Positions 13,365-23,556 of a DNA stretch of 24,829 nucleotides are shown piece by piece. Each line of letters opens with the position of its first letter. Positions within the stretch are counted from its first letter, which is position 1. The notes under the pieces are model-generated. The model did no database searches. It saw only the letters and a program-made list of their open reading frames with translations, and had not been told where the DNA came from. The stretch lies in UHGV virus genome UHGV-0244087; one strand, 5' to 3'. This stretch comes from a virus. Position numbers and translations under genes: made by a program.

Positions 13365-14410
13365 TGAGCAGAAAAAATAAAAAAGTGCGCATGAGTTCAC
13401 GCATTGATCTCGCTGATGCGCTCAGGAAAGAATCATCGCTCAGTGCATTCACATTTGATGGTCCTTATCGCCTGACCGGGCATGACCTGCTGGACAATAT
13501 GTACTGTGCTGATAACGGGCGGTGGTATGAAACCCCGGTGGACTGGTACGGTCTGGCAAGAGCAGCCCGGCAAACGTCCTGGCATCAGTCTGCGCTTTAC
13601 TTTAAGCGCAATGTATTACTCGGTTGCTACATCCCGCACCCGCTGCTTTCCCGGCAGGATTTCTCGGCGCTGGCGCTGGACTGGTTTGTGTTCGGTAACG
13701 CATTCCTTGAGCTTCGAAGCAATATGCTCGGCGAACCGCTTAAATTACGGCACGCCCTGGCGAAATACATGCGACGCGGAAGCGATCTTGAATCATGGTG
13801 GTATGTGCAGGATGGCAAGGACGCGTTTCAGTTTCGTCCTGGCAAAGTGTGCCACCTGATGAATCCGGATATTAACCAGGAAATCTACGGCATGCCGGAA
13901 TATCTTGGCGCATTACTCTCGGCCAGCCTTTCTCATTCGGCGGACATGTTCAGAAAACTGTACTACGACAACGGATCCCACGCCGGGTGCATCATCTACA
14001 TCGGTGCAGCGCAGGTAAACCGCGAAAGCATGGACTCCCTGAAAGAAACGCTACAGGGGGCACGTGGTGGTGGTGCGTTTAAAAACGTGCTCATTCATGC
14101 GCCCAACGGGGGCAAAGAGGGGGTGCAAATTTTGCCGTTCCAGCAGATCACCGCAAAAGATGAATTCATGAATGTTAAGGCGGCATCCCGTGATGATGTG
14201 CTGGCTGCGCACCGCGTTCCGCCGCAACTGATGGGGGCGATGCCGGGCGAAAAAAGTGCGTTTGGCGATGTGGAGAAGGCAGCGCGGGTTTACGCAATTA
14301 ACGAGCTGATGCCCGTCATGGAGGCTATGAAGCACATCAATGACTGGCTTGGCGAAGAGGTGATCCGTTTTAACTCTTATGCTCTTCTTGATGAAAAAAC
14401 AGCCCCGTGA
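13364..14410 (+). CDS. Q: Portal protein Q
   Basis: 348 aa; FTFDGP..WYETPV..GLAR resembles recalled P2 gpQ; sits downstream of P. Confidence 0.9.
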   Translation: MSRKNKKVRMSSRIDLADALRKESSLSAFTFDGPYRLTGHDLLDNMYCADNGRWYETPVDWYGLARAARQTSWHQSALYFKRNVLLGCYIPHPLLSRQDFSALALDWFVFGNAFLELRSNMLGEPLKLRHALAKYMRRGSDLESWWYVQDGKDAFQFRPGKVCHLMNPDINQEIYGMPEYLGALLSASLSHSADMFRKLYYDNGSHAGCIIYIGAAQVNRESMDSLKETLQGARGGGAFKNVLIHAPNGGKEGVQILPFQQITAKDEFMNVKAASRDDVLAAHRVPPQLMGAMPGEKSAFGDVEKAARVYAINELMPVMEAMKHINDWLGEEVIRFNSYALLDEKTAP

Positions 14411-14424: not shown

Positions 14425-14949
14425 TTACCAGAGTTGAACCATTTTCTGGGTGCCGTCAGGCTTGAGATTATCAATTTCAGAGAGAACGTAATATTGAATG
14501 GCTTCACAAACGGTGGTGTAGGGTGAATTACCTTCTTTAAGTGGCACGATATTATTATTAACGCGAACCTGTATTTCATCGTTATACATTGCGATCGAAA
14601 CAGGCGTGTGCACGAACGCGACTTCGCCAGGTGTGTCGTCAACCACCGTTTCAATACTAAAAGTCAGTTTTCGCTCATCATTGCTGCCCCGTGCTTTGGG
14701 GGTAGCGGCAGGGATCTGGGATAAAGGCATTCTGCGAAATCCTTCGGCTGCTTCCAGTCCGCATGAAACGTAATGCTGGCGATTACCGTCGCTATCTGTC
14801 CAGGTCTGTGATGGCAGCTCCAGCGAGATTTCATAAGCATCAACAATGCCCTGGGCAAGGCGTACAAGCGGGGTCAGATCTTCATTGCGGCGAAAGCTCT
14901 CCTTTACCTGCTCCCGTTTTTCTCTTAACTGCTTGTAATTAATGACCAT
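14425..14949 (-). CDS. Hypothetical 174-aa protein, orphan cargo convergent with portal
   Basis: ATG at 14947-14949 with a GGAGG ribosome-binding site 8 nt upstream. No family recognised. Confidence 0.65.
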   Translation of the reverse strand: MVINYKQLREKREQVKESFRRNEDLTPLVRLAQGIVDAYEISLELPSQTWTDSDGNRQHYVSCGLEAAEGFRRMPLSQIPAATPKARGSNDERKLTFSIETVVDDTPGEVAFVHTPVSIAMYNDEIQVRVNNNIVPLKEGNSPYTTVCEAIQYYVLSEIDNLKPDGTQKMVQLW

Positions 14950-15048
14950 AAGACAGCCTCCATTGATTTCTTTGCTCGTATTTTGCACTTATGAAGTATG
15001 GTCGGCAAGGTGCCGTATCGCTGACGCGCTTCGCTTGTCTGCTGCTTC

Positions 15049-15077
15049 GCCGGGGCATAAAAAATTTATGCCCCGGC
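15049..15077. repeat. Perfect 29-bp palindrome in the non-coding stretch upstream of the 174-aa gene
   Basis: gccggggcat-aaaaaattt-atgccccggc, 10-bp arms extendable to 13 bp through the A/T loop. No U-tract follows on either strand. Confidence 0.7.
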
Positions 15078-15448
15078 TCTCCAGCTCCTGTATCAATCAG
15101 ATAATTTCACGACGCCTTCCAGTTTATCGCCACCATCGACGGTCAGACTCTTACGCAATTCCACCGCGTTGACTGTATGTTCTCGCTGCCTCAGTGCGAT
15201 TTTGACGGCCTTACCTTTCACCCCATCAAATCAAAAGCCCTCACGCCTTTTTCATGCTCAGCGTGAGAAATATGGCCATTCTGTTGTGTCTCTGCGACAT
15301 CGTTCAGGGAATGCTATTTACCCCCTGAAACGCGGGCTGTTCCCCCGTCACCTGCGCGCAGAAAAAGCGCGTTTTTTTGTGCACGCACGGATCCTTGACG
15401 GATCCAGCCGCCATGCGGGCCGGAAGGGTAAAAAGTCGTTCAAAAAAA

Positions 15449-15478
15449 TTGTGCAAATTTGTGCACTTTTGTGCAAAC
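15449..15478. repeat. Three tandem 10-bp iterons (TTGTGCA core)
   Basis: ttgtgcaaat, ttgtgcactt, ttgtgcaaac in direct succession; a fourth ttgtgca core lies at 15377-15383. Confidence 0.7.
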
Positions 15479-15480
15479 AA

Positions 15481-15505
15481 AAAGCGCCCCTGAGGCGCTT
15501 TAGTG
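15481..15505 (-). terminator. Intrinsic terminator ending the minus-strand cargo operon
   Basis: Hairpin agcgcc-cctga-ggcgct followed on the minus strand by a T-rich run (ttttgtttg); lies about 30 nt after the stop of the 87-aa gene. Confidence 0.65.
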
Positions 15506-15535
15506 TTTTATAGGTTGTGTATATTTGCTGGGTCC

Positions 15536-15799
15536 TTATCCTGCTGTGCTTTCAACTGATGAGGGGAACAAAATCTTTTCATCAAACCCTGCATTCATAT
15601 CATGGACAGCAACACACCAATCCATTGACGAACGATTATCAAGAGCCTCCATGATTTCATCCATGCGGCGCAGGTCATACAGGTAAATGCTTTTATCGCC
15701 AATGGTGTAAAAACCAATTTTTTTCGGTGATGGACAGCGATCAAGAACGTCCTGTAATTCGCTCAACCATGCTTGTTCTTTTTTTGTCAAAGTTGCCAT
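15536..15799 (-). CDS. Hypothetical 87-aa protein, fourth gene of the cargo operon
   Basis: ATG with an AAGGAGAG ribosome-binding site that is embedded in the last codons of the upstream gene. No family recognised. Confidence 0.6.
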   Translation of the reverse strand: MATLTKKEQAWLSELQDVLDRCPSPKKIGFYTIGDKSIYLYDLRRMDEIMEALDNRSSMDWCVAVHDMNAGFDEKILFPSSVESTAG

Positions 15800-15800
15800 A

Positions 15801-16292
15801 TCACTCTCCTTTGATGCGAATGCCAGTGGTACTCATTCTCCTGATTTCCCAGAGCACACGAGGAACACCACCGTTTCCGACCGGATCGCGTTTACTCCGC
15901 AGGGCGACGCTTGATTCCGCCCAGCTTTTTCTTGGAGGAAGCTCTTTCACACGAACAAAACCAGCTGCGCGGAGAGATGCTCCTGATTCATCTGCCTGGG
16001 TGTACGTAATACAACGTTGATAACCCATAGCCTTTGCTGCCCGCCAGACAGCACCATAAAGCGCGCTGTTAGCGTTGCGTTCTCCTGTGGTACATGTGCG
16101 ATTTACTTCAAGCGTTAATCCATCGTCCAAATGTCGTGCAACAGGTCTACCGGCTGTCGCCACACCTATCAATTCTCCGGCATCATTTCTCAGACCAATG
16201 CTGAATTTATGCCCCACCGGGGGTTTATTGTGTCGGTGATGTCTGGATATAAACGCCTTCGCAACACGAAGAGTAACCGGTGAAATTTGCAT
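15801..16292 (-). CDS. Hypothetical 163-aa protein, third gene of the cargo operon; possibly acyltransferase-like
   Basis: ATG at 16290-16292, 2 nt after the stop of the 104-aa gene, with the same embedded ribosome-binding site. A loose resemblance to GNAT-toxin N-terminal regions (FISRHHRHNKPP..IGVATAG) is not verified. Confidence 0.6.
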   Translation of the reverse strand: MQISPVTLRVAKAFISRHHRHNKPPVGHKFSIGLRNDAGELIGVATAGRPVARHLDDGLTLEVNRTCTTGERNANSALYGAVWRAAKAMGYQRCITYTQADESGASLRAAGFVRVKELPPRKSWAESSVALRSKRDPVGNGGVPRVLWEIRRMSTTGIRIKGE

Positions 16293-16294
16293 TC

Positions 16295-16609
16295 TCACTC
16301 TCCTTTGATGCCAATGTTTACAGACTGGCAAGCCTCTTTGAGCACCCAGTCAACAGCGTCTTTCCATGCTCCGGTTTCGACTGGCGGATTCTCACGCTTT
16401 ACCTGTTCATAGAAATGTACTGCTCTAACCAGTCCATCTGACGGTTTTGCCTGTAGTGCAGCCTGAGCTATGCGGTATGCCTGGAGCATACGGGCGTCGT
16501 TGATATCCATTCCGAACGGAATTTCTGATGATTGTGACTCTGCATCTTCAAGCCTGGCAATTTCTTTACGTAAGAAGTATTTCAACTCTTGTTTCTGTTT
16601 TCTGTTCAT
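16295..16609 (-). CDS. Hypothetical 104-aa helical protein, second gene of the cargo operon
   Basis: ATG overlaps the stop of the upstream gene (ATGA). C-terminus ...NIGIKGE parallels the ...GIRIKGE end of the next protein. Confidence 0.6.
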
Positions 16610-16938
16610 GCGTTTTTTTCCTTTTTGTCTGTCACTTCTTTCCTGATAATTTCATTGCACAAATCCACGCACTCATTGCAGATGTAAACAGACGGTCCGG
16701 CAATCACCTTTGTGACTTCGTACTGGGATTTATTGCAGAAGCTGCAATAAACCGTCTTCTCGCCTGAAGTCCATGTTTTGCTGGTTTCGCCAGACATCAG
16801 TTGTTTGAGGTCTTTTTCACGACGAAGAACTATCTGGCCACATTCAGCTATTTTTTGGATGTTGACATTTTCTTCTTTCGCCAGCGCTTCCATCCGCTCA
16901 ATCAGTCGCTGCGCTTTTTCTCTGTCAATGTGTTGCAT
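16606..16938 (-). CDS. 110-aa protein with a C-terminal ClpX-type C4 zinc-binding domain and an N-terminal helical region
   Basis: [41 protein letters not shown] is near-identical in pattern to the recalled E. coli ClpX N-terminal domain ([40 protein letters not shown]), with the same C-x2-C-x18-C-x2-C spacing. ATG with an AGGGGGA ribosome-binding site. Confidence 0.75.
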
Positions 16939-16972
16939 TGTGTCCCCCTTGTTTATGCTCCCGGGTTAAAGT

Positions 16973-16996
16973 CATCAGGGCGGATGCGCCCTGATG
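16973..16996. other. Perfect 10-bp-stem hairpin between parR and the zinc-binding-domain gene
   Basis: catcagggcg-gatg-cgccctgatg. No U-tract follows on the minus strand, so it is unlikely to be a simple terminator. Confidence 0.6.
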
Positions 16997-17001
16997 TTGT
17001 G

Positions 17002-17313
17002 TTATTCGGGAAATAACGCCCGGATATTTCCGGCCATCTGACTGGTTATCTGTGCGGCTGATACTGGCTGTGACGCGGGGCGTTCTGTCCTGGTTTGTGT
17101 CATTGATAACGCCTCATCATCAGCCCATGCAGCCAGTCGGTAAGCCTCTGCCGGATTCATTTTCAGTAGTGCCAGCCCGGCCAGAAAAGCCACGCGTTGA
17201 CCACTTTTGCGGGCTTCTGGTGTAAGGCTGTCCAGCCAGGCGCATGCTTCGCCTTCGTTCTTGACGGCGGCGGGCTTCAGATAGAAACTTATCCGTCTGG
17301 TTGGTGTCGTCAT
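17002..17313 (-). CDS. parR: ParR (StbB)-like centromere-binding protein
   Basis: 103 aa; RRISFYLKP..LDSLTPEARKS..AFLAGLALL..NIRALFPE parallels recalled R1 ParR (RRTIAFKLNP..LDSIPQGERSR..LTAGLALY..LRSLFPKE). AAGGAG ribosome-binding site; start 5 nt after the parM stop. Confidence 0.75.
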   Translation of the reverse strand: MTTPTRRISFYLKPAAVKNEGEACAWLDSLTPEARKSGQRVAFLAGLALLKMNPAEAYRLAAWADDEALSMTQTRTERPASQPVSAAQITSQMAGNIRALFPE

Positions 17314-17317
17314 TGGT

Positions 17318-18277
17318 TTACTCCTTGCCCATTGCGTACAGCCCATTAACCAGAGCAAACTGTGGCACCCCGTCCGCGATGAAAGTCGCATTAACTCCGC
17401 AGGCTTCGCGGATAGCGGGTGCCACAATCTCTGCCCCGCCACCGACAACCATCACCCGCCCGTAACCCGAAAAACCCGCCAGCGCGCGGATCACGCGTTG
17501 TTTCAGTGTTTCTTCCTTTTCACGAATAACCGCCATCAGGCTGGCGTAATGCGCGTCATTGTGGATGTGCTGGCGCAGCCAGGCTTCATCATGGCGATGT
17601 TCGATAATGGTATTGGCGATGTGGTGACTGGTACGCATACCGTTAGTGGCCATCACCGACAGTACGGCATCGGCCATCAGGGAAACGCCTACGTGTGGAT
17701 CGCAAAACACCTGGCTGATACCTGCCAGTTGTCCCTGAACCTTTGCCACATCCAGCGTGGTTCCGCCTAAATCCACAATCAGCAGGGATTCAAACGGACT
17801 CATGTCAGCCAGTGCCTTAAAGCCAGCCGGAATGGATTCAGGCATAACCCGTACGTTACGGATAGTGAATGCTTCGCCGTTCTGGTACTCCACCGGGCGC
17901 ATAACGTTCGCTTTTTTGCGGTTGATGTTGGCTATGTCCGGCTGTGCGTTTGTGTCGAAATACTCGCTCAGTGGCAGGGTGACAACCACATCCACCTCCT
18001 GTGGCGTGATGCCTGATTTGACCAGCGCGTGATGAATGGCAATGACATTCACATCGCTGTACTGGTATTGCGTGTCAGTCGTCTGGACAAAGCGATCGCT
18101 GACCGGATCAAAACCATAGCGCACGCCATCAAGCATGTAGTTCGCGGGCTGCGTGCCACCGAACGGCGCAGACCATTCCGACTTGAAGCTGTTCGGGCTG
18201 ATGGCGTTGCGGCGTTCGCCGTTCTCAGTCCATGCCAGCTTGATGTTGGTGGAGCCGTCATCGATACAAATTTTCAT
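17318..18277 (-). CDS. parM: ParM (StbA)-like actin-family ATPase
   Basis: 319 aa; MKICIDDGSTNIKL..ISPNSFK..YSDVNVIAIHHAL..VMPESIPAG..LIVDLGGTTLD..VGGGAE tracks recalled R1 ParM along its length. Confidence 0.85.
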   Translation of the reverse strand: MKICIDDGSTNIKLAWTENGERRNAISPNSFKSEWSAPFGGTQPANYMLDGVRYGFDPVSDRFVQTTDTQYQYSDVNVIAIHHALVKSGITPQEVDVVVTLPLSEYFDTNAQPDIANINRKKANVMRPVEYQNGEAFTIRNVRVMPESIPAGFKALADMSPFESLLIVDLGGTTLDVAKVQGQLAGISQVFCDPHVGVSLMADAVLSVMATNGMRTSHHIANTIIEHRHDEAWLRQHIHNDAHYASLMAVIREKEETLKQRVIRALAGFSGYGRVMVVGGGAEIVAPAIREACGVNATFIADGVPQFALVNGLYAMGKE

Positions 18278-18307
18278 GTCGCTTTTCCTTATGTTGATTA
18301 ATTAATC

Positions 18308-18418
18308 GTTTACGGGATTCTGAAATCCCGTTTTTGCCTGTTTTATGCGCGCTTCATATATCGCGGCGCGTTTTTTGCTCATTTACGGGATTTGTGAATC
18401 CCGTTTCTGTCTGTTTTT
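18308..18418. repeat. Two direct copies of a ~37-bp element, each with an 8-bp inverted repeat (acgggatt..aatcccgt) followed by a T-rich tail
   Basis: Copy 1 at 18308-18344 (gtttacgggattctgaaatcccgtttttgcctgtttt) and copy 2 at 18382-18418, 74 bp apart. They lie just upstream of parM, and copy 2 overlaps the last codons of A. Confidence 0.75.
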
Positions 18419-21176
18419 TGTTTCCACTGGTCAGGCCACCCCGCAGCAGGTCTGCTTTGCGGCGGGCGCGTTCAGTGGTTTCACTGATTCTCTGTGCGTG
18501 CTCTGCGTCGCGGATGGCGCGCAGCATGTCAGAAAGCACGGTAACGGGTGTTTTCATGGTGTTCTGGTCTTGCTGAAGTGTGGATGCCAGGCGTGCGGCG
18601 GCTTCGGGGTCTGATGCCCTCAGCTGTTCCAGATAGCTGGCGACCGGGTTATGGCGGATCTCCGTACTGCTTACGCCGTGGTTACGGCTCAGGCGCTGCC
18701 AGAGCTGCGTGATCCGGCTGTCCGGTCGGGTATCCGGTTTGCGTACAATTTCAAATCCCTGCGGTGCAATGATGCTGCCGTCAACGTACAGACTGCCGCC
18801 CCGTAACAGGTGCTGCATCTGCTGTTCACCGATATGCAGGCCGAGAGATTCGGCAGATTCCCGCCATTCTTTAGCGAGTAATTCGTGGTTATCAGGCAAA
18901 GGCCGCTGCTGTTTGCGGCTCTGTGTCCAGCTCTGCATTTCATCACTGCTGTTTTTTGCCTGTTTGTCACGAAGCGAACGCATCAGCGCCCGGCGTTCGT
19001 GCCGTTTCAGTGAGCGCATCCATTCGTTCACGTCAACGCCGTCAGGAAGCTGCGGCCACGGTGCTGGCCGTTCTTCCGGCTGTTCTGTCCCGTTGTTGTC
19101 CGTTTCCTGTACACGGGGACAGTTATTGCCACGAGTCCAAGGGGCGGCATGGCCGCCCTGAAGGTCAAAACCATTTTCGCGGGCGTTGTCTTCTGGTTCT
19201 GGTTTACGTCTTACCAACTTCCAGTTATCCGGATGCGTGCACACACGGGAGGATTCCCCGATGAGTGGTGACCAGATCCCGTAAATCTGTACGCTCTGTT
19301 CGCCGTAATCGTTCAGCTCATCTGCGAGGTCGTAGGCGGTGCGAATCAGGTAGTCCTTGCGTGGAACAAGCACGCCACCCTGTTTTTCAATGTAGGAGGC
19401 AAAACACCCGGCATCAGCGGCAGCGAGTACCGCATCCATTGCATCATCCTTCAGCCGTTGCGGGCCTTCCGGGTTGCGTGCCATCTGGCTGGCAAGGCGG
19501 CGGAGTTCACGCCATACCTGACGGGAGGGGATGCCAAAGAACTGGAACTGGCGGACCCGATGAAGACGCGCCCAGCCAATGGCGCGCTCCACGCTCTCGG
19601 CCATTGATTTTCCGGTTTCGTGGTCAACGCGTGGCTTGCCCGTTTTCGGGTCGATGCCATCTACGGCGCGGCTGTCCAGGTTTTTTCCGATGTAGGTCGC
19701 GATATAGCTGGTTGGTGTGCCTTTTGAGCCGTCGACATACTCCGCCTTAAAGCGCGGAGTAATATCATCGCCCAGTTCGTGACGATCTTCCTGAATGGCA
19801 ATATCGCGGGTGATGGCCACGATGCTGTCGATTTCTTCCGGATGAGCAAAGACCATCATATGCCAGTGCACGGTGCCGTCATGGTGAGGCTCCACCGTGC
19901 GGATGCCATACCAGCGCAGGCCGTCGCGGTTCAGTTTTTTGCGGACTGCCGCAAAAAACGTGTTAACCAGGTAATCGCTGGAGTCGCGCATGGTGGCCCC
20001 GTTCCATTTGGGGTTCGGATGACCGTTCTCCGTTGTTGCGTGGTATTTTGACGGGCAGGTGACGGTCAGAAACACCGCTCTGTCGCTACGGGCTTCGGCC
20101 AGAAGTTCCAGTCCCTTCATGGTGGCCATCATTTCTGCCTTACGGTGAACCGGGTTACTTACTCCCGCGTAATACACCGTCTCGAGATCAATCGTGAACC
20201 CGTCTTCATTTTCCAGCATGAAACTTTTCAGGAAATCGCGTGTTTTCTCGCGCTGTGCGCGAAACTCGCTTAACGCGTCCTGGCTCAGATAGGGCGATGT
20301 TTTTCTGGAAACCAGACAGGCGGCGCGGAGTTGTTCTTCTCTCCACTCGCAACGTAACAGCCACAGTTTGCGTTTCCACCATTCCGCACAGGTCAGGCGG
20401 AGGATTGCGCCCGGCAGCAGCTCCGTGTCCGGTTCGTTCCTCCGGTCTTTGTCTGTTGTCAGTGCGTCATAATGTGGAGGCATGGCGTGCAGGTGTAACG
20501 CCATGCGGGCCAGCATCTGATACGCCTTCAGCGTTACATCCATGGTCAGTTCGCCATCAGTCGCGCCAAAGCCATCGCAGAGTTTTTCGAAGGTGCTGCT
20601 GAACATCGCCGCCGTCATGGTGGCCAGCGTCTGTATCTGGTGTTTGTTGAGCTGCGGCAGGTAAAGCAAATCGTCCAGGCGTTCGCGTCCGGCAAGGGAG
20701 CGATAACCCGGTGTCAGCCAGCGTCTGTCAGTGCGATCCAGACGTTCGAATATTTTGCGCAGGGTTCCGCGTGCATAGCGTTCCGCCTGCCAGCTCTTTT
20801 TGCCTTTCCGGCGATCGGCTTCCTGTTTTTTGCGCAGGAAGGAGAGGTGGCGAATAAGCGGATCGCGCAGATAGGACGGCAGCAGGCGCAGCGAGGCCAT
20901 GGCTTCATCCACCGCGCCGCGTGCCCGTTTTCTGGCGTCTCCTGCCAGTGTGATGGTTTTGTCCTGTTTTTCCTGTGCGTCCAGGCTTTTATTAATCAGG
21001 TTGCCCAGCGGTGTGGCGGAGAACGCCGCATCAGCCATTTCCTGGCGGCGTTCGTTCTCTGCCCGGTAGGCATCCAGCCAGGAGGAAAGTGCGGATTCAG
21101 GTGCGGGGATCTCCGTTCCTTCACGTCCTACTGCGTGGCGCGGTTGTTGCCAGTCCCTGATGTACTCTGCCGTCAT
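18354..21176 (-). CDS. A: Replication initiation endonuclease A (rolling-circle), with a long C-terminal extension
   Basis: 940 aa, recognised as P2 gpA-like from overall sequence and position downstream of the early-region ORFs; ATG start. Recalled P2 gpA is 761 aa. Confidence 0.85.
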   Translation of the reverse strand: MTAEYIRDWQQPRHAVGREGTEIPAPESALSSWLDAYRAENERRQEMADAAFSATPLGNLINKSLDAQEKQDKTITLAGDARKRARGAVDEAMASLRLLPSYLRDPLIRHLSFLRKKQEADRRKGKKSWQAERYARGTLRKIFERLDRTDRRWLTPGYRSLAGRERLDDLLYLPQLNKHQIQTLATMTAAMFSSTFEKLCDGFGATDGELTMDVTLKAYQMLARMALHLHAMPPHYDALTTDKDRRNEPDTELLPGAILRLTCAEWWKRKLWLLRCEWREEQLRAACLVSRKTSPYLSQDALSEFRAQREKTRDFLKSFMLENEDGFTIDLETVYYAGVSNPVHRKAEMMATMKGLELLAEARSDRAVFLTVTCPSKYHATTENGHPNPKWNGATMRDSSDYLVNTFFAAVRKKLNRDGLRWYGIRTVEPHHDGTVHWHMMVFAHPEEIDSIVAITRDIAIQEDRHELGDDITPRFKAEYVDGSKGTPTSYIATYIGKNLDSRAVDGIDPKTGKPRVDHETGKSMAESVERAIGWARLHRVRQFQFFGIPSRQVWRELRRLASQMARNPEGPQRLKDDAMDAVLAAADAGCFASYIEKQGGVLVPRKDYLIRTAYDLADELNDYGEQSVQIYGIWSPLIGESSRVCTHPDNWKLVRRKPEPEDNARENGFDLQGGHAAPWTRGNNCPRVQETDNNGTEQPEERPAPWPQLPDGVDVNEWMRSLKRHERRALMRSLRDKQAKNSSDEMQSWTQSRKQQRPLPDNHELLAKEWRESAESLGLHIGEQQMQHLLRGGSLYVDGSIIAPQGFEIVRKPDTRPDSRITQLWQRLSRNHGVSSTEIRHNPVASYLEQLRASDPEAAARLASTLQQDQNTMKTPVTVLSDMLRAIRDAEHAQRISETTERARRKADLLRGGLTSGNKKQTETGFTNPVNEQKTRRDI

Positions 21177-21182
21177 AGTGAT

Positions 21183-21548
21183 TTACTTCGTCATGCCATT
21201 CAGGGTGTCGCGGCAGACTGTAGCCAGCCGCTGAATTTCCAGCACGGTGTCTTCTGTGTCGGCATGGCGATGTGTGATGCGGATGCTGTCGGCAATCACA
21301 TCGACGATTGCAGAGGATGGGCGCTGGTAAATGCCAATAACGGACGGGGTGCCACCTTCAATGCGGTAAAGCCTGTAATTTCCCTCGTGGCTGTCAATCA
21401 TGTAGCGACCATCAATAACAATCTTTCCGTCAGCGAGCTGCGGTACAGGCAGGGATTTCAGGTACATGTCATAACGATCACGCACGCGAGCGGCAAGATC
21501 ACGTTCTGTGTTGAGCAGGTATTCAAGAAAGTCGTTGGCGAGAATCAT
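21183..21548 (-). CDS. Hypothetical 121-aa early-region protein immediately upstream of A
   Basis: ORF ending 7 nt before the A start; no family recognised. Confidence 0.55.
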   Translation of the reverse strand: MILANDFLEYLLNTERDLAARVRDRYDMYLKSLPVPQLADGKIVIDGRYMIDSHEGNYRLYRIEGGTPSVIGIYQRPSSAIVDVIADSIRITHRHADTEDTVLEIQRLATVCRDTLNGMTK

Positions 21549-21620
21549 TGCGGCAATCCTCTTGTTACAGATGTGCGAAGGCCTCCCGCCGCAAGGTGCA
21601 GGAAAGGCCCGGAACAGGAA

Positions 21621-21851
21621 TTAATGGAGTTTGTTTTGCTGCTGGATGAGCTGTTGAAGCTCGCGCAGATCATCCGCCAGATAGCTGAAAACAGCGGCGG
21701 AATAGATGTTTGATAGTGCGTGGCTGCGCTCATGCAGCATATTGATGTGCATGATATGCGCGACGCGGAATGCGCGGAAAAGTCTGCGGTTGATTTCAGT
21801 CTGGATGTGACGACGCGCAGCGTATGCGCGCTGTTGTTTGCGGTTTGCCAT
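21621..21851 (-). CDS. Hypothetical 76-aa basic protein
   Basis: ORF with a weak GAGG ribosome-binding site; arginine-rich N-terminus; no family recognised. Confidence 0.4.
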   Translation of the reverse strand: MANRKQQRAYAARRHIQTEINRRLFRAFRVAHIMHINMLHERSHALSNIYSAAVFSYLADDLRELQQLIQQQNKLH

Positions 21852-22030
21852 GGGGTGGCCTCGTACGTAGTAAGTTTTAAAAACTCACCATCCAGAGGTT
21901 CCAAGCTCGGGGTGGTGAGACGTACAGGGTTGGAACTACCGGCTACGCACGAATCCGGCCCGACCGAAGTCGGCCCCATACGCCCCACCATAATTCTGAC
22001 GCGAAAAAGACGTGGCGATACGGTACGCAC

Positions 22031-22051
22031 AAAAAAACCGCTGGCGCGGTT
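22031..22051 (-). terminator. Intrinsic terminator (minus strand) inside the non-coding island
   Basis: Hairpin aaccgc-gcca-gcggtt followed on the minus strand by a run of seven T. Confidence 0.6.
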
Positions 22052-22187
22052 GTGCGCGTGCATAGTCAGCGGGGTTCCAATCCCGGCACCCGTTTTATGA
22101 GGTGCAGCGGAAATGTAACCTGACTGATTGCGGCATGGCAAGCGGTTTTTTTGTGAGAACGGCATACTAAAAAATCCTGATACTGCT

Positions 22188-22212
22188 CCGGCCAGCGGTT
22201 TTCACTGGCCGG
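22188..22212 (-). terminator. Hairpin immediately after the SPFH gene stop; weak terminator
   Basis: ccggccag-cggttttca-ctggccgg, 8-bp perfect stem; the T-run on the minus strand starts only about 11 nt later. Confidence 0.45.
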
Positions 22213-22218
22213 GTTTAA

Positions 22219-23049
22219 TTACTTCACCGGAACAAACGGAACAGCGGTGTTACTGGTCATGTATTGCGGTAGCGTGCCGTTCCATTTGTTAATCGCTTCC
22301 AGCTCCATAACGCCGGGATTCTGGCGCAGAGCTTCGCCGCGTAAACGAATGGCGTCGGCTTCAGCCTGGGCTTTTGTGCGAATGGCATCGGCTTGTCCGG
22401 CAGCTTCTGCGCGCAGCATGTTGGCTTCAGCTTCGCGTTGCTTGACTTCCTGTTCACGTTGCAGGGTTTTCTGGTTTGCCGTGACTTTGGCGTTAATGCT
22501 GTCGATAACGGTTGGCGGATATTCCGGTTTACCGACATAAGAGAGGCTCATGACCTGAATACCGATGGGGGTCATCTCTTCCTGAATATCTTTAAGTGCT
22601 GAATCCAGCAGTTCAGACTTACCACCGTCGATAAACTTATCGGTGGTCATTTTGCTGGCCAGTCGGTTGAGTGCATCGGCGATCTTCTGGCGCAGGTCAG
22701 TGTCGGTAATGTCGTCCACGCCTTTGCGGTAGGTCTGAAACACCGTGGTAACTTTGGATGGATCAACTTTGTAGGCCACGCCGATGTGATAGCCGATGGT
22801 TGTGCCGTCACTCATCTGAAAGCTGAACGGCTCATCGTAGGTCTTCATTTGTTTGAAGGTCGGGAAGATGTAAACCTCGGTATTCCAGCCAGTCCAGTAG
22901 CGACCAACGCCAACCACTTCGCCAACGCCTTTGTCGTCGCCCAGCTTGTTGACTTTGATGCCCATATTACCTGGCTCAACGCGATCGCAGCCAACCAGCA
23001 GGATGGCGGCAAAAAGCGGGAGAATCTGAAAGAGTCTGAATTTCTTCAT
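22219..23049 (-). CDS. SPFH/band-7 (prohibitin/HflC-like) lipoprotein
   Basis: 276 aa; N-terminus MKKFRLFQILPLFAAILLVGC (signal peptide plus lipobox); band-7 core followed by an Ala/Glu/Arg-rich coiled coil (EAEANMLRAEAAGQADAIRTKAQAEADAIR). Confidence 0.75.
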   Translation of the reverse strand: MKKFRLFQILPLFAAILLVGCDRVEPGNMGIKVNKLGDDKGVGEVVGVGRYWTGWNTEVYIFPTFKQMKTYDEPFSFQMSDGTTIGYHIGVAYKVDPSKVTTVFQTYRKGVDDITDTDLRQKIADALNRLASKMTTDKFIDGGKSELLDSALKDIQEEMTPIGIQVMSLSYVGKPEYPPTVIDSINAKVTANQKTLQREQEVKQREAEANMLRAEAAGQADAIRTKAQAEADAIRLRGEALRQNPGVMELEAINKWNGTLPQYMTSNTAVPFVPVK

Positions 23050-23249
23050 TGTTTAATTTCCTTGATGTACTTACTGAAAAGGCGAACAACGCCTGCCGGG
23101 TACAGCATGGCAATGAAAATGCCCAACAATACCAGGAAGGAGCTGTCTGATGAAATCATTCGGGGGAGTACCCCTACATACAGAATGAGAGAGACGAGGA
23201 CGCATACCAGCGCCCATGCATATGCACGAAACCATGTCTTGTTGTTCAT
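23046..23249 (-). CDS. Small membrane protein (67 aa, two predicted transmembrane helices) translationally coupled to the SPFH gene
   Basis: Internal ATG at 23247-23249 (MNNKTWFRAYAWALVCVLVSLILYV...); its stop overlaps the SPFH start (ATGA). Ribosome-binding site is weak. Confidence 0.55.
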   Translation of the reverse strand: MNNKTWFRAYAWALVCVLVSLILYVGVLPRMISSDSSFLVLLGIFIAMLYPAGVVRLFSKYIKEIKQ

Positions 23250-23259
23250 GTTGCGGCCC

Positions 23260-23556
23260 TTACTGGTTAAGGAAAAAATCGAAAACCTTGTCAATGCGTT
23301 GCAGCAGCTCTTGCTGTATTGCTTCCGGCGTTTCCGGTTCGCCTGGCGCCTCCAACGTCGCGCAGAAATCAGCGATTTCATGATGGAGTGTCAGGCGAAT
23401 GGCAGGGGCCGTGGTTCTGGCGTGCTCCAACTCATCCAGCAGTGCCAACACCACTGACGGTTGTAAGCTCACGCGAGATGGTAGTGATTCACGGGGGGGT
23501 ATTCTTTGCACGGCAGTCGCCAGTTCGCGTAGTTCCTGGTGGTTGATGATGCTCAT
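23260..23556 (-). CDS. Hypothetical 98-aa acidic protein
   Basis: ORF in the early-region gene string on the minus strand; no family recognised. Confidence 0.5.
   Translation of the reverse strand: MSIINHQELRELATAVQRIPPRESLPSRVSLQPSVVLALLDELEHARTTAPAIRLTLHHEIADFCATLEAPGEPETPEAIQQELLQRIDKVFDFFLNQ

What the first reader, a model, noticed from the sequence alone, without database searches (positions are those of the whole stretch)
18308..18418. Paired hairpin-containing repeats upstream of parM, overlapping the 3' end of gene A
Two 37-bp direct repeats lie 74 bp apart, each with an 8-bp inverted repeat and a T-rich tail. They sit exactly where a partition centromere and promoter (parC) would be expected upstream of parM. 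The second copy is inside the final codons of A, which suggests the cassette was inserted or fused at the end of A. On the plus strand both read as hairpin plus T-run, so an antisense terminator is an alternative.
Basis: seen in the sequence. Interest (0 to 1): 0.5.

Follow-up and report, generated by a model that had tools for sequence, protein, structure and literature searches.

The report
Likely centromere of a prophage ParMR system
Two matching 20-bp palindromes just upstream of parM in a P2-like E. coli prophage are most likely the DNA site (parC) that the phage's own plasmid-type segregation proteins bind; that is what one expects next to parM, but it gives a concrete handle on a system carried by about a quarter of complete E. 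coli genomes.

Summary
Two perfect palindromes, ACGGGATT-N4-AATCCCGT, lie at 18312-18331 and 18385-18404. The distal copy covers the last codons of replication gene A.

The window is a P88-like (Xuanwuvirus, P2-like) prophage. On the minus strand the order is A, then parM (R1-type actin-like ATPase), then parR (ribbon-helix-helix adaptor).

The repeats travel with parMR. Phages with unrelated upstream genes carry the same module, and homology starts about 15-20 bp before the distal palindrome. The DNA of the distal copy is kept while A reads it in all three frames. In a Hafnia relative, all 24 core arm positions are kept while loops and spacer diverge. More distant P2-like-phage parMR loci keep two sites 72-73 bp apart with changed sequence.

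No compensatory stem changes were seen. No plus-strand gene needs a terminator here. The P2-type origin lies elsewhere (19119-19156).

Best reading: a parC-type centromere and operator bound by ParR (confidence about 0.7). ParR binding is not shown, and no convincing sigma-70 promoter was found. It is a new member of a known kind, of modest interest.

The parts
18379..18420 (-). Distal 42-nt repeat unit (A-rich 5' flank, palindrome, TAAATGA), lying inside the last codons of A. It marks the left edge of the par module.
   Evidence: family D2; homology with phages that have unrelated upstream genes starts here.
18385..18404 (.). Distal palindrome ACGGGATT-tgtg-AATCCCGT (plus strand): candidate ParR site 1.
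   Evidence: The 6-bp core GGGATT/AATCCC is kept in Hafnia.
18348..18378 (-). Central 31-bp GC-rich spacer between the two units. It contains the stop codon of A (18354-18356) and is the most variable part of the module.
18306..18347 (-). Proximal 42-nt repeat unit, lying between genes.
   Evidence: family D2.
18312..18331 (.). Proximal palindrome ACGGGATT-ctga-AATCCCGT: candidate ParR site 2. Its centre and right arm would overlap a weak -35-like hexamer (TTCAGA, 18324-18319).
   Evidence: The hexamer was read by eye and is below the scan threshold.
18278..18305 (-). parM leader with the ATTAAT(T)AATCAA motif (possible -10 at 18302-18297) and Shine-Dalgarno AAGGA (18290-18286). This is the best conserved non-coding stretch.
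   Evidence: pi 0.021. The motif recurs in L295 and L296.
17318..18277 (-). parM, an actin-like segregation ATPase (319 aa).
   Evidence: StbA_N 3.6e-82, ParM C-terminal domain 1.3e-68. (R1 ParM structure, 2.5e-93).
17002..17313 (-). parR, a ribbon-helix-helix centromere-binding adaptor (103 aa).
   Evidence: Plasmid_stab_B 6e-24. (family profile matches pB171 ParR/StbB, 2JD3, 8e-10). (alignments).
18354..21176 (-). Gene A, the P2-type replication endonuclease (940 aa). Its 3' tail runs through the distal repeat.

Best explanation
The two repeats are the cis-acting site (parC) of a type II ParMRC partition module carried in the variable region downstream of gene A in P88-like, P2-family prophages.

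Inferred mechanism: dimers of the ribbon-helix-helix protein ParR bind the two 20-bp palindromes. The sites are 73 bp apart, about seven helical turns, so they face the same side of an A-tract-phased and probably curved DNA. The ParR-DNA complex captures ParM filament ends through the conserved ParR C-terminal peptide, which allows ParM polymerisation to move free phage DNA circles. Binding at the proximal site, which overlaps the only promoter-like hexamers, would also repress parMR.

Shown here: the repeats exist, they belong to the par module, their cores and their spacing are conserved, and parM and parR are bona fide and under purifying selection.

Inferred only: ParR binding, autoregulation, and segregation activity.
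For: 1. Position. The repeats lie directly upstream of parM-parR on the sense strand. ParM matches the R1 ParM structure at 2.5e-93. A profile of the ParR family matches the pB171 ParR structure 2JD3 at 8e-10.

2. Uniqueness. They are the only two copies in the window; 0.06 are expected by chance.

3. Co-inheritance. Nearly all of 93 viral contigs and 3 enteric genomes found by the pattern alone have parM next to the repeats. In L144, L155 and L302 the upstream genes are unrelated, and homology begins about 15-20 bp before the distal palindrome.

4. Constraint on DNA rather than protein. A's stop codon falls at -77, -102, -106, -66, -25 or -114 relative to the parM start codon, so the same distal DNA is read in all three frames.

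5. Deeper conservation. In Hafnia L006, parM third-codon positions are only 69% identical to the window. Even so, 24 of 24 core arm positions are kept, while loops and spacer diverge. The right arm changed in the same way in both copies.

6. Conserved layout in distant relatives. In P2-like-phage parMR loci whose ParM is 62-63% identical, two related sites again lie upstream of parM, 73 bp apart in L295 and 72 bp apart in L296. Loci at 54-58% identity have a different pair of 19-20-bp inverted sites and a different ParR beta-strand (NRK instead of TRR).

7. The proteins are maintained. parM nucleotide diversity is 0.004-0.007 at codon positions 1 and 2, against 0.053 at position 3.

8. Phased A-tracts. 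AA/TT periodicity at 10-10.5 bp has p of about 0.003-0.007. R1 parC is reported to be curved (PMC2241845).
Against: There is no binding or stability experiment.

Among close relatives the arms are no more conserved than parM third-codon positions (pi 0.040-0.052 against 0.053). In a sample anchored on ParM, only 35 of 78 loci have both cores perfect.

No sigma-70-type promoter reaches 9 of 12 matches. The spacer, where R1 has its promoter, is the least conserved part.

The layout differs from R1 parC, which has 2 x 5 direct 11-bp iterons; here there are two palindromes.

The module is almost always integrated in chromosomes (1454 of 1456 places), where a plasmid centromere has no obvious use.

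ParR allele type does not track the site variants.
Confidence: 0.7

Rival explanations
1. The hairpins are plus-strand (antisense) rho-independent terminators that stop transcription running into A from the parM side.
For: Both copies fit a hairpin-plus-T-tail pattern on the plus strand. The stems fold at about -10 kcal/mol.
Against: The nearest real plus-strand gene (portal) ends at 14410, 3.9 kb away, and no plus-strand promoter-like site lies nearby. The T-rich tail is simply the complement of the A-rich flank of the repeat, and the distal tail has only 3 T before it is interrupted. There are no compensatory stem changes in 16 pairs across 54 distinct sequences. Uncompensated arm changes are common. 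At the homologous sites in L296 only a 4-bp stem with a 10-nt loop remains. Two independent terminators would not explain the conserved 72-73-bp spacing.
Confidence: 0.06
2. The palindromes act as RNA stem-loops in a read-through A-parM-parR mRNA, for processing, stability or translational coupling, rather than as protein-binding DNA.
For: On the sense strand each folds at -11 to -11.6 kcal/mol with z-scores of -3 to -5. With no strong promoter detected, parMR may well be read through from A.
Against: There is no covariation. In 12 of 54 distinct sequences the distal stem carries a C·A mismatch on the sense strand. The inner arms are lost in L296. No Rfam family matches. The parallel one-sided changes in both copies (Hafnia, L253, L272) and the conserved spacing are not expected for independent RNA hairpins.
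Confidence: 0.08
3. The sites are an operator for a regulator other than ParR, either a phage or a host protein, that controls parMR or the end of the early operon.
For: Symmetric 20-bp palindromes are typical dimer operators. Nothing tested here identifies the binding protein.
Against: The sites move with parMR into phages that have different A genes and early regions, so the cognate factor should be encoded in the module, and ParR is its only DNA-binding protein. The site sequence changes together with the ParR beta-strand class (TRR against NRK) in distant loci. The sites do not resemble the P2 nick site, whose homologue lies at 19119-19156.
Confidence: 0.1
4. The repeats are a chance or decaying remnant with no present function.
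For: Diversity in the arms is close to the synonymous level among E. coli copies, and many copies carry single mismatches.
Against: Chance expectation is 0.06 copies. The core arms are fully kept at 31% third-position divergence. The layout recurs in loci with 62-63% ParM identity. parM is under strong purifying selection.
Confidence: 0.04

Closest known systems
parC of plasmid R1 (ParMRC, type II partition)
   Same: It lies directly upstream of parM-parR. It consists of two repeat blocks flanking a central region (R1: 159 bp in total; here about 143 bp). The DNA is A-tract-rich and curved. The cognate proteins are an actin-like ParM (about 50% identical) and a Plasmid_stab_B-family ParR (about 25% identical). 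The R1 architecture is taken from PMC2241845 and from the IncFII locus L214.
   Different: R1 has 2 x 5 direct 11-bp iterons with a clear promoter in the 39-bp core. Here each block holds one 20-bp palindrome plus an A-rich flank, the core is GC-rich, variable and lacks a promoter-like site, and the distal block overlaps a coding region. The host replicon is an integrating phage rather than a plasmid.
pB171 par1 ParR (StbB, PDB 2JD3) and pSK41 ParR-centromere complexes
   Same: The ParR family profile built here hits 2JD3 at 8e-10.
   Different: To my recollection those centromeres are arrays of tandem direct repeats. Here there are two separated palindromes. No structure or binding data exist for the phage protein.
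Putative plasmid partitioning system in the P2-like phage hotspot (Rousset et al. 2022, PMC9122126)
   Same: Probably the same genes and the same location, in the variable region after the replication genes. That paper notes that about a quarter of P2-like phages carry such a system. Here, a quarter of complete E. coli genomes carry this parMR region (1308 of 5426).
   Different: The passage found speaks of a putative plasmid partitioning system, with no mention of a cis site. The repeats, the module boundary and the two-site spacing are described here.
AlpA-AlpC-alpS of the Corynebacterium prophage CGP3 (PMC4446434, PMC5539076)
   Same: An integrated prophage encodes an actin-like protein, a DNA-binding adaptor and specific DNA sites. 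That system serves viral DNA transport and replication rather than plasmid inheritance, so it offers a possible model for what parMRC does in an integrating P2-like phage.
   Different: No homology to that system was tested here. The P88-type proteins are close relatives of enterobacterial plasmid ParM and ParR.

Membership tests
parC centromere of a type II (ParMRC) partition locus | Lies in cis, immediately upstream of a parM-parR operon. | tested here: met
   The repeats at 18306-18420 end 29 bp before the parM start codon. parR follows parM.
parC centromere of a type II (ParMRC) partition locus | A cognate actin-like ParM and a ribbon-helix-helix ParR are encoded next to it. | tested here: met
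   ParM hits StbA_N and the ParM C-terminal domain, and the R1 ParM structure at 2.5e-93. ParR hits PF10784 at 6e-24, and its family profile hits 2JD3 at 8e-10.
parC centromere of a type II (ParMRC) partition locus | Made of repeated sequence elements that occur nowhere else in the replicon. | tested here: met
   There are two 42-nt units, each with a 20-bp palindrome. Only 2 matches occur in 24.8 kb against 0.06 expected. The number and type of repeats differ from R1.
parC centromere of a type II (ParMRC) partition locus | Inherited together with parMR as one module, independent of flanking genes. | tested here: met
   L144, L155 and L302 have unrelated upstream genes but the same repeats and parMR. 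Where parMR is replaced (L300), the proximal copy is lost with it.
parC centromere of a type II (ParMRC) partition locus | ParR binds the repeats specifically and cooperatively. | not testable with these tools
   There is only indirect support. The ParR N-terminal domain is conserved wherever the sites are conserved, and a different beta-strand class goes with different sites.
parC centromere of a type II (ParMRC) partition locus | Contains the par promoter, which ParR autoregulates. | tested here: inconclusive
   No sigma-70-like site reaches 9 of 12 matches in 17800-18900. The best candidate, found by eye, is TTCAGA-16-ATTAAT (8 of 12), overlapping the proximal palindrome. The leader motif ATTAATCAA is conserved in L295 and L296.
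parC centromere of a type II (ParMRC) partition locus | Stabilises a replicon in cis and exerts incompatibility in trans. | not testable with these tools
   This needs plasmid-loss and incompatibility assays.
Rho-independent terminator (plus strand) | A stable GC-rich stem-loop followed by a U-run. | tested here: met
   One search lists both copies. The stems have 8 bp with 4 G-C pairs and fold at about -10 kcal/mol. The distal tail is poor (TTTCTGTCTG).
Rho-independent terminator (plus strand) | Sits at the end of a transcription unit on that strand. | tested here: not met
   The nearest plus-strand gene ends at 14410, and everything from about 14425 to 23400 is coded on the minus strand.
Rho-independent terminator (plus strand) | The stem is maintained in relatives, ideally through compensatory changes. 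| tested here: not met
   There are 0 changes on both sides in 16 pairs over 54 distinct sequences, and one-sided mismatches are common. In L296 the stem is reduced to 4 bp.
P2-type replication origin (A-protein nick site) | Sequence related to the P2 nick site inside gene A. | tested here: not met
   The P2 nick-site region aligns to window 19119-19156 (30 of 38 identical). That stretch is also the DNA island shared with many P2-like phages. It does not align to the repeats.

The most novel reading that the evidence does not exclude
The ParR-parC-ParM module may not be a plasmid-maintenance device in these integrating phages. It could instead be a phage DNA-positioning system, as AlpACS is for prophage CGP3, acting on excised or replicating circles during induction, or allowing a transient episomal carrier state. 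The distal ParR site placed inside the 3' end of replication gene A would then physically and regulatorily couple replication-gene expression to segregation-complex assembly. Under this reading, a quarter of complete E. coli genomes would carry a functional actin-based DNA-moving machine with a defined chromosomal centromere.
Probability: 0.2. Interest if true: 0.65.

Novelty: new member of a known kind. Interest (0 to 1): 0.35.

Why it matters
The parMR genes of P2-like prophages are very common. This region is present in 1308 of 5426 complete E. coli genomes and is almost always chromosomal. Their role in a phage that integrates is unknown. The published suggestion is only that they perhaps allow these prophages to be maintained as plasmids (PMC9122126).

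Pinning down the probable cis site makes that question testable. What is now defined is two palindromes, a 143-bp module and a conserved 72-73-bp spacing. These can be used for gel shifts, ChIP, plasmid-stability and incompatibility assays, and clean point mutants of a P88 lysogen.

The site would also be a compact two-site variant of a type II centromere, useful for comparing how ribbon-helix-helix ParR proteins build partition complexes. On its own, a centromere upstream of parM is what a specialist would expect.

Tried and rejected
1. Origin of replication: rejected. The homologue of the P2 nick site lies 750 bp away inside A.

2. Known RNA families: none match.

3. Covariation test for the hairpins: no compensatory changes, no better than shuffles. 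This neither proves nor excludes a structure, but it gives the structure no support.

4. Pattern scan of one-genome-per-species contigs. It returned mostly unrelated repeat families in Desulfobacterales, Poribacteria and others. Only 3 enteric loci were relevant.

5. Relatives that seemed to have the repeats but no parMR. L190, L183 and L301 turned out to be deletion derivatives with truncated parM. They say nothing about independence.

6. tblastn of ParR against plasmids found only P88-like elements. The plasmid ParM proteins listed were all 52% identical or less, so no plasmid intermediates were available.

7. The ParM-profile scan of viral contigs returned only 98-99% identical copies. It was useful as an unbiased sample but not for distant comparison.

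8. Link between ParR allele type and site variants: none found.

9. Sigma-70 promoter scan: nothing above threshold.

10. The third copy of the T-rich motif at 18953-18965 (family D3) has no palindrome and is treated as chance.

Full report
**What is there**

The plus strand between 18306 and 18420 holds two copies of a 42-nt unit, at 18306-18347 and 18379-18420. They are 81% identical and 73 bp apart start to start. Each contains a perfect 20-bp palindrome, ACGGGATT-N4-AATCCCGT, at 18312-18331 and 18385-18404. These are the only two matches in the 24,829-bp window, even with three mismatches allowed. Chance expectation is 0.06, and none of 100 shuffles gave two. On the plus strand both copies fit a hairpin-plus-T-tail pattern, with stems of about -10 kcal/mol.

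**Context**

All genes here are on the minus strand.

- Gene A runs from 21176 to 18354. It encodes 940 aa and hits Phage_GPA at 9e-130.
- parM runs from 18277 to 17318. It hits StbA_N and the ParM C-terminal domain, and matches the R1 ParM crystal structures at 2.5e-93 with about 50% identity.
- parR runs from 17313 to 17002. It encodes 103 aa and hits Plasmid_stab_B at 6e-24.
- A profile of the ParR family matches the ribbon-helix-helix ParR/StbB of pB171 (2JD3) at 8e-10.

The window is a P88-like Xuanwuvirus, a P2-family phage; 97% identical records include phage P88 and Citrobacter phage phiSM. The segment 17000-18430 is 100% identical to the E. coli PCN033 chromosome. Read in the sense of the genes, the distal repeat lies in the last codons of A (tail ...GFTNPVNEQKTRRDI*). 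The proximal repeat lies in the 76-bp gap, ending 29 bp before the parM start codon.

**The repeats belong to the par module, not to A**

A pattern-only scan (GGGATT-N4-AATCCC, 40-70 nt, then the same again) found 93 viral contigs and three enteric genomes. Nearly all have the same 89-bp span, and nearly all have parM beside it. Two contigs (L144, L155) and one complete genome (L302) have a different upstream region: L144 and L302 carry a distantly related A-type gene (about 31% identical in L144) followed by another ORF. Their homology to the window starts about 15-20 bp upstream of the distal palindrome, at the start of the 42-nt unit. In L302 the annotation pipeline calls this 69-bp stretch a fragment of a replication-protein pseudogene.

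Conversely, in L300 a P88-type A is followed by a different cargo gene. parMR and the proximal repeat are gone, and the breakpoint lies right after A's stop codon. The distal repeat survives because it is part of A. Apparent cases of repeats without parMR (L190, L183, L301) are deletion derivatives with truncated parM. In complete E. coli genomes the P88-type A 3' end occurs at 1535 places and the parMR region at 1456, so about 95% of such A genes are followed by the module.

**The constraint is on DNA, not on the A protein**

Across relatives, the stop codon of A falls at -77, -102, -106, -66, -25 or -114 relative to the parM start. The same distal DNA is therefore translated in all three frames...TNPVNEQK......KTDRNGIHKSRK*...NKNRQKRDSQIP*.

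**Conservation**

Among close relatives sampled through ParM rather than through the pattern (L215-L294), the picture is sobering. Only 35 of 78 loci have both six-base cores perfect, 26 have one, and 17 have none. The usual variants are single transitions, GGGACT or AATCCT.

| Region | Nucleotide diversity |
|---|---|
| Core arms | 0.040 |
| Central spacer | 0.061 |
| Loops | 0.15 |
| parM leader | 0.021 |
| parM third codon positions | 0.053 |
| A third codon positions | 0.080 |

At this depth the arms are no better conserved than synonymous sites, although they vary about four times less than the loops.

The signal appears at greater depth. In Hafnia (L006), parM third positions are 69% identical to the window, yet all 24 core arm positions are kept. 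Five of eight loop positions and much of the spacer differ; if arm positions diverged like parM third positions, 24 of 24 unchanged would have a probability of about 1e-4. In that relative the right arm changed from CCCGT to CCCAA and CCCAT in both copies, without compensation on the left arm. Parallel one-sided changes in both copies also occur in L253 and L272.

A direct count over 54 distinct sequences gives zero two-sided (compensatory) changes in 16 stem pairs, no better than shuffles. Base pairing as such has no positive support.

**Distant relatives keep the layout**

ParM proteins 54-63% identical to this one also sit downstream of a Phage_GPA gene and upstream of the portal gene in P2-like prophages of Hafnia, Plesiomonas, Serratia and Enterobacter.

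- In L295 the only two matches to the palindrome at up to 2 mismatches in 8 kb are GGGATTgaggAAACCC and GGGTTCattaAATCCC. Both lie upstream of parM and are 73 bp apart.
- In L296 the top repeat family is GCGGGACAACAAAAACCCG. Its two copies are 72 bp apart. The outer CGGG-N10-CCCG is kept and the inner arms have changed. The distal copy again overlaps the last codons of A.
- In L297 and L298 the sites are a different pair of 19-20-bp inverted sequences, 28 nt apart. The ParR beta-strand there reads NRKISF instead of TRRISF.

The conserved features are therefore two sites upstream of parM, with fixed spacing, and a sequence that changes with the ParR class. That is what a protein-binding centromere or operator predicts. 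It is not what independent hairpins or terminators predict.

**ParR**

The phage ParR proteins share a nearly invariant N-terminal domain of about 50 aa (MTTPTRRISFYLKP...QRxAFLAGLAL) and a C-terminal NIxALFPE peptide, joined by a free-running linker. Two alleles that are about 52% identical coexist with the same sites. By analogy with R1 and pB171, the N-terminus would bind DNA and the C-terminus would bind ParM. This is an inference from my own knowledge of those systems; only the homology was tested.

**Other checks**

- The P2 origin nick site (annotated in NC_001895) aligns to window 19119-19156. That is also the short DNA island shared with Klebsiella, Salmonella and Yersinia P2-like phages. 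The repeats are therefore not the origin.
- No Rfam family matches.
- The 148-bp region is 46% A on the sense strand. It shows AA/TT periodicity at 10-10.5 bp (p about 0.003-0.007 against shuffles, six periods tried). This suggests phased A-tracts, and R1 parC is reported to be curved (PMC2241845).
- No sigma-70-like promoter reaches 9 of 12 matches in 17800-18900 on either strand. The best candidate by eye is TTCAGA (18324-18319), 16 nt, then ATTAAT (18302-18297). It overlaps the proximal palindrome, and the ATTAATCAA leader motif recurs in L295 and L296. Whether parMR has its own promoter or is read through from A remains open.

**Comparison with what is known**

R1 parC is 159 bp, with two sets of five direct 11-bp iterons around a 39-bp promoter core (PMC2241845; compare L214). 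The phage module is about 143 bp, with two blocks around a 31-bp core. Each block carries one palindrome plus an A-rich flank, the core is variable and has no promoter-like site, and one block overlaps a gene.

The presence of a putative partition system in about a quarter of P2-like phages has been noted (PMC9122126). I found no description of its cis site in the searchable literature. A prophage actin-like system with adaptor and DNA sites, AlpACS of CGP3, serves viral DNA transport and replication (PMC4446434, PMC5539076; abstracts seen). It is a possible functional model.

**Verdict**

The most likely identity is the parC-type ParR-binding site of a phage-borne ParMRC module (about 0.7). 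The antisense terminator, an RNA hairpin, an operator for another regulator, and a remnant without function are each at or below about 0.1. It is a new member of a known kind. Its value is mainly as a handle on the unexplained role of parMRC in integrated P2-like prophages.

Noticed in passing
window 19111-19160 (minus strand, inside A): This short DNA island is about 90% identical in Klebsiella, Salmonella and Yersinia P2-like phages whose A genes otherwise do not match at the DNA level. It aligns to the annotated P2 ori nick site (30 of 38 identical), so it is probably this phage's replication origin.
   Followed up: partly
window 17000-18430; E. coli complete genomes: The parC-parM-parR region occurs in 1308 of 5426 complete E. 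coli genomes, at 1454 chromosomal places and only 2 on plasmids. The window segment is 100% identical to the E. coli PCN033 chromosome. A plasmid-type segregation system is thus almost always found integrated.
   Followed up: partly
L299 (NZ_CP148288.1, whole record): A complete P88-like phage genome, integrase included, is deposited as a circular 34,461-bp 'plasmid' of an E. coli isolate from a cat. It is either a true episomal prophage or an excised circle captured by the assembly.
   Followed up: partly
window 17002-17313 (parR) and relatives: ParR occurs as two alleles that are about 52% identical. They share the N-terminal domain of about 50 aa and the C-terminal NIxALFPE peptide but have unrelated linkers. 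DNA homology between the two types breaks about 18 codons into parR. Both types occur with the same repeats and the same ParM.
   Followed up: partly
L300 3480-3560 (E. coli CUVET19-1704): A P88-type A gene keeps the distal repeat, but parMR and the proximal repeat are replaced by an ead/Ea22-like gene. The breakpoint lies right after A's stop codon, which suggests that cargo exchange in the P2 hotspot recombines within the spacer of the candidate centromere.
   Followed up: partly
window 14425-16938 (minus strand): Further cargo genes lie between parR and the portal gene. They include a 110-aa protein with a ClpX-type C4 zinc finger (16606-16938) and several ORFs with no Pfam match. None was examined.
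   Followed up: no
L297 3382-3447 and L298 3383-3450: Serratia and Enterobacter P2-like prophages with ParM 54-58% identical to this one have a different candidate centromere. It is a 19-20-bp sequence (AGGAACGAAATAGAAAAAT) present as an inverted pair 28 nt apart upstream of parM, and it goes with a ParR beta-strand NRKISF.
   Followed up: partly
Genome-contig loci L008-L087 (for example L039, L051, L009): The pattern GGGATT-N4-AATCCC repeated at 40-70 nt also hits large arrays of unrelated repeats in Desulfobacterales, Poribacteria, an Acidimicrobiales MAG (53 matches per strand in 8 kb) and Runella. These are probably unrelated repeat families or arrays. They were not examined.
   Followed up: no
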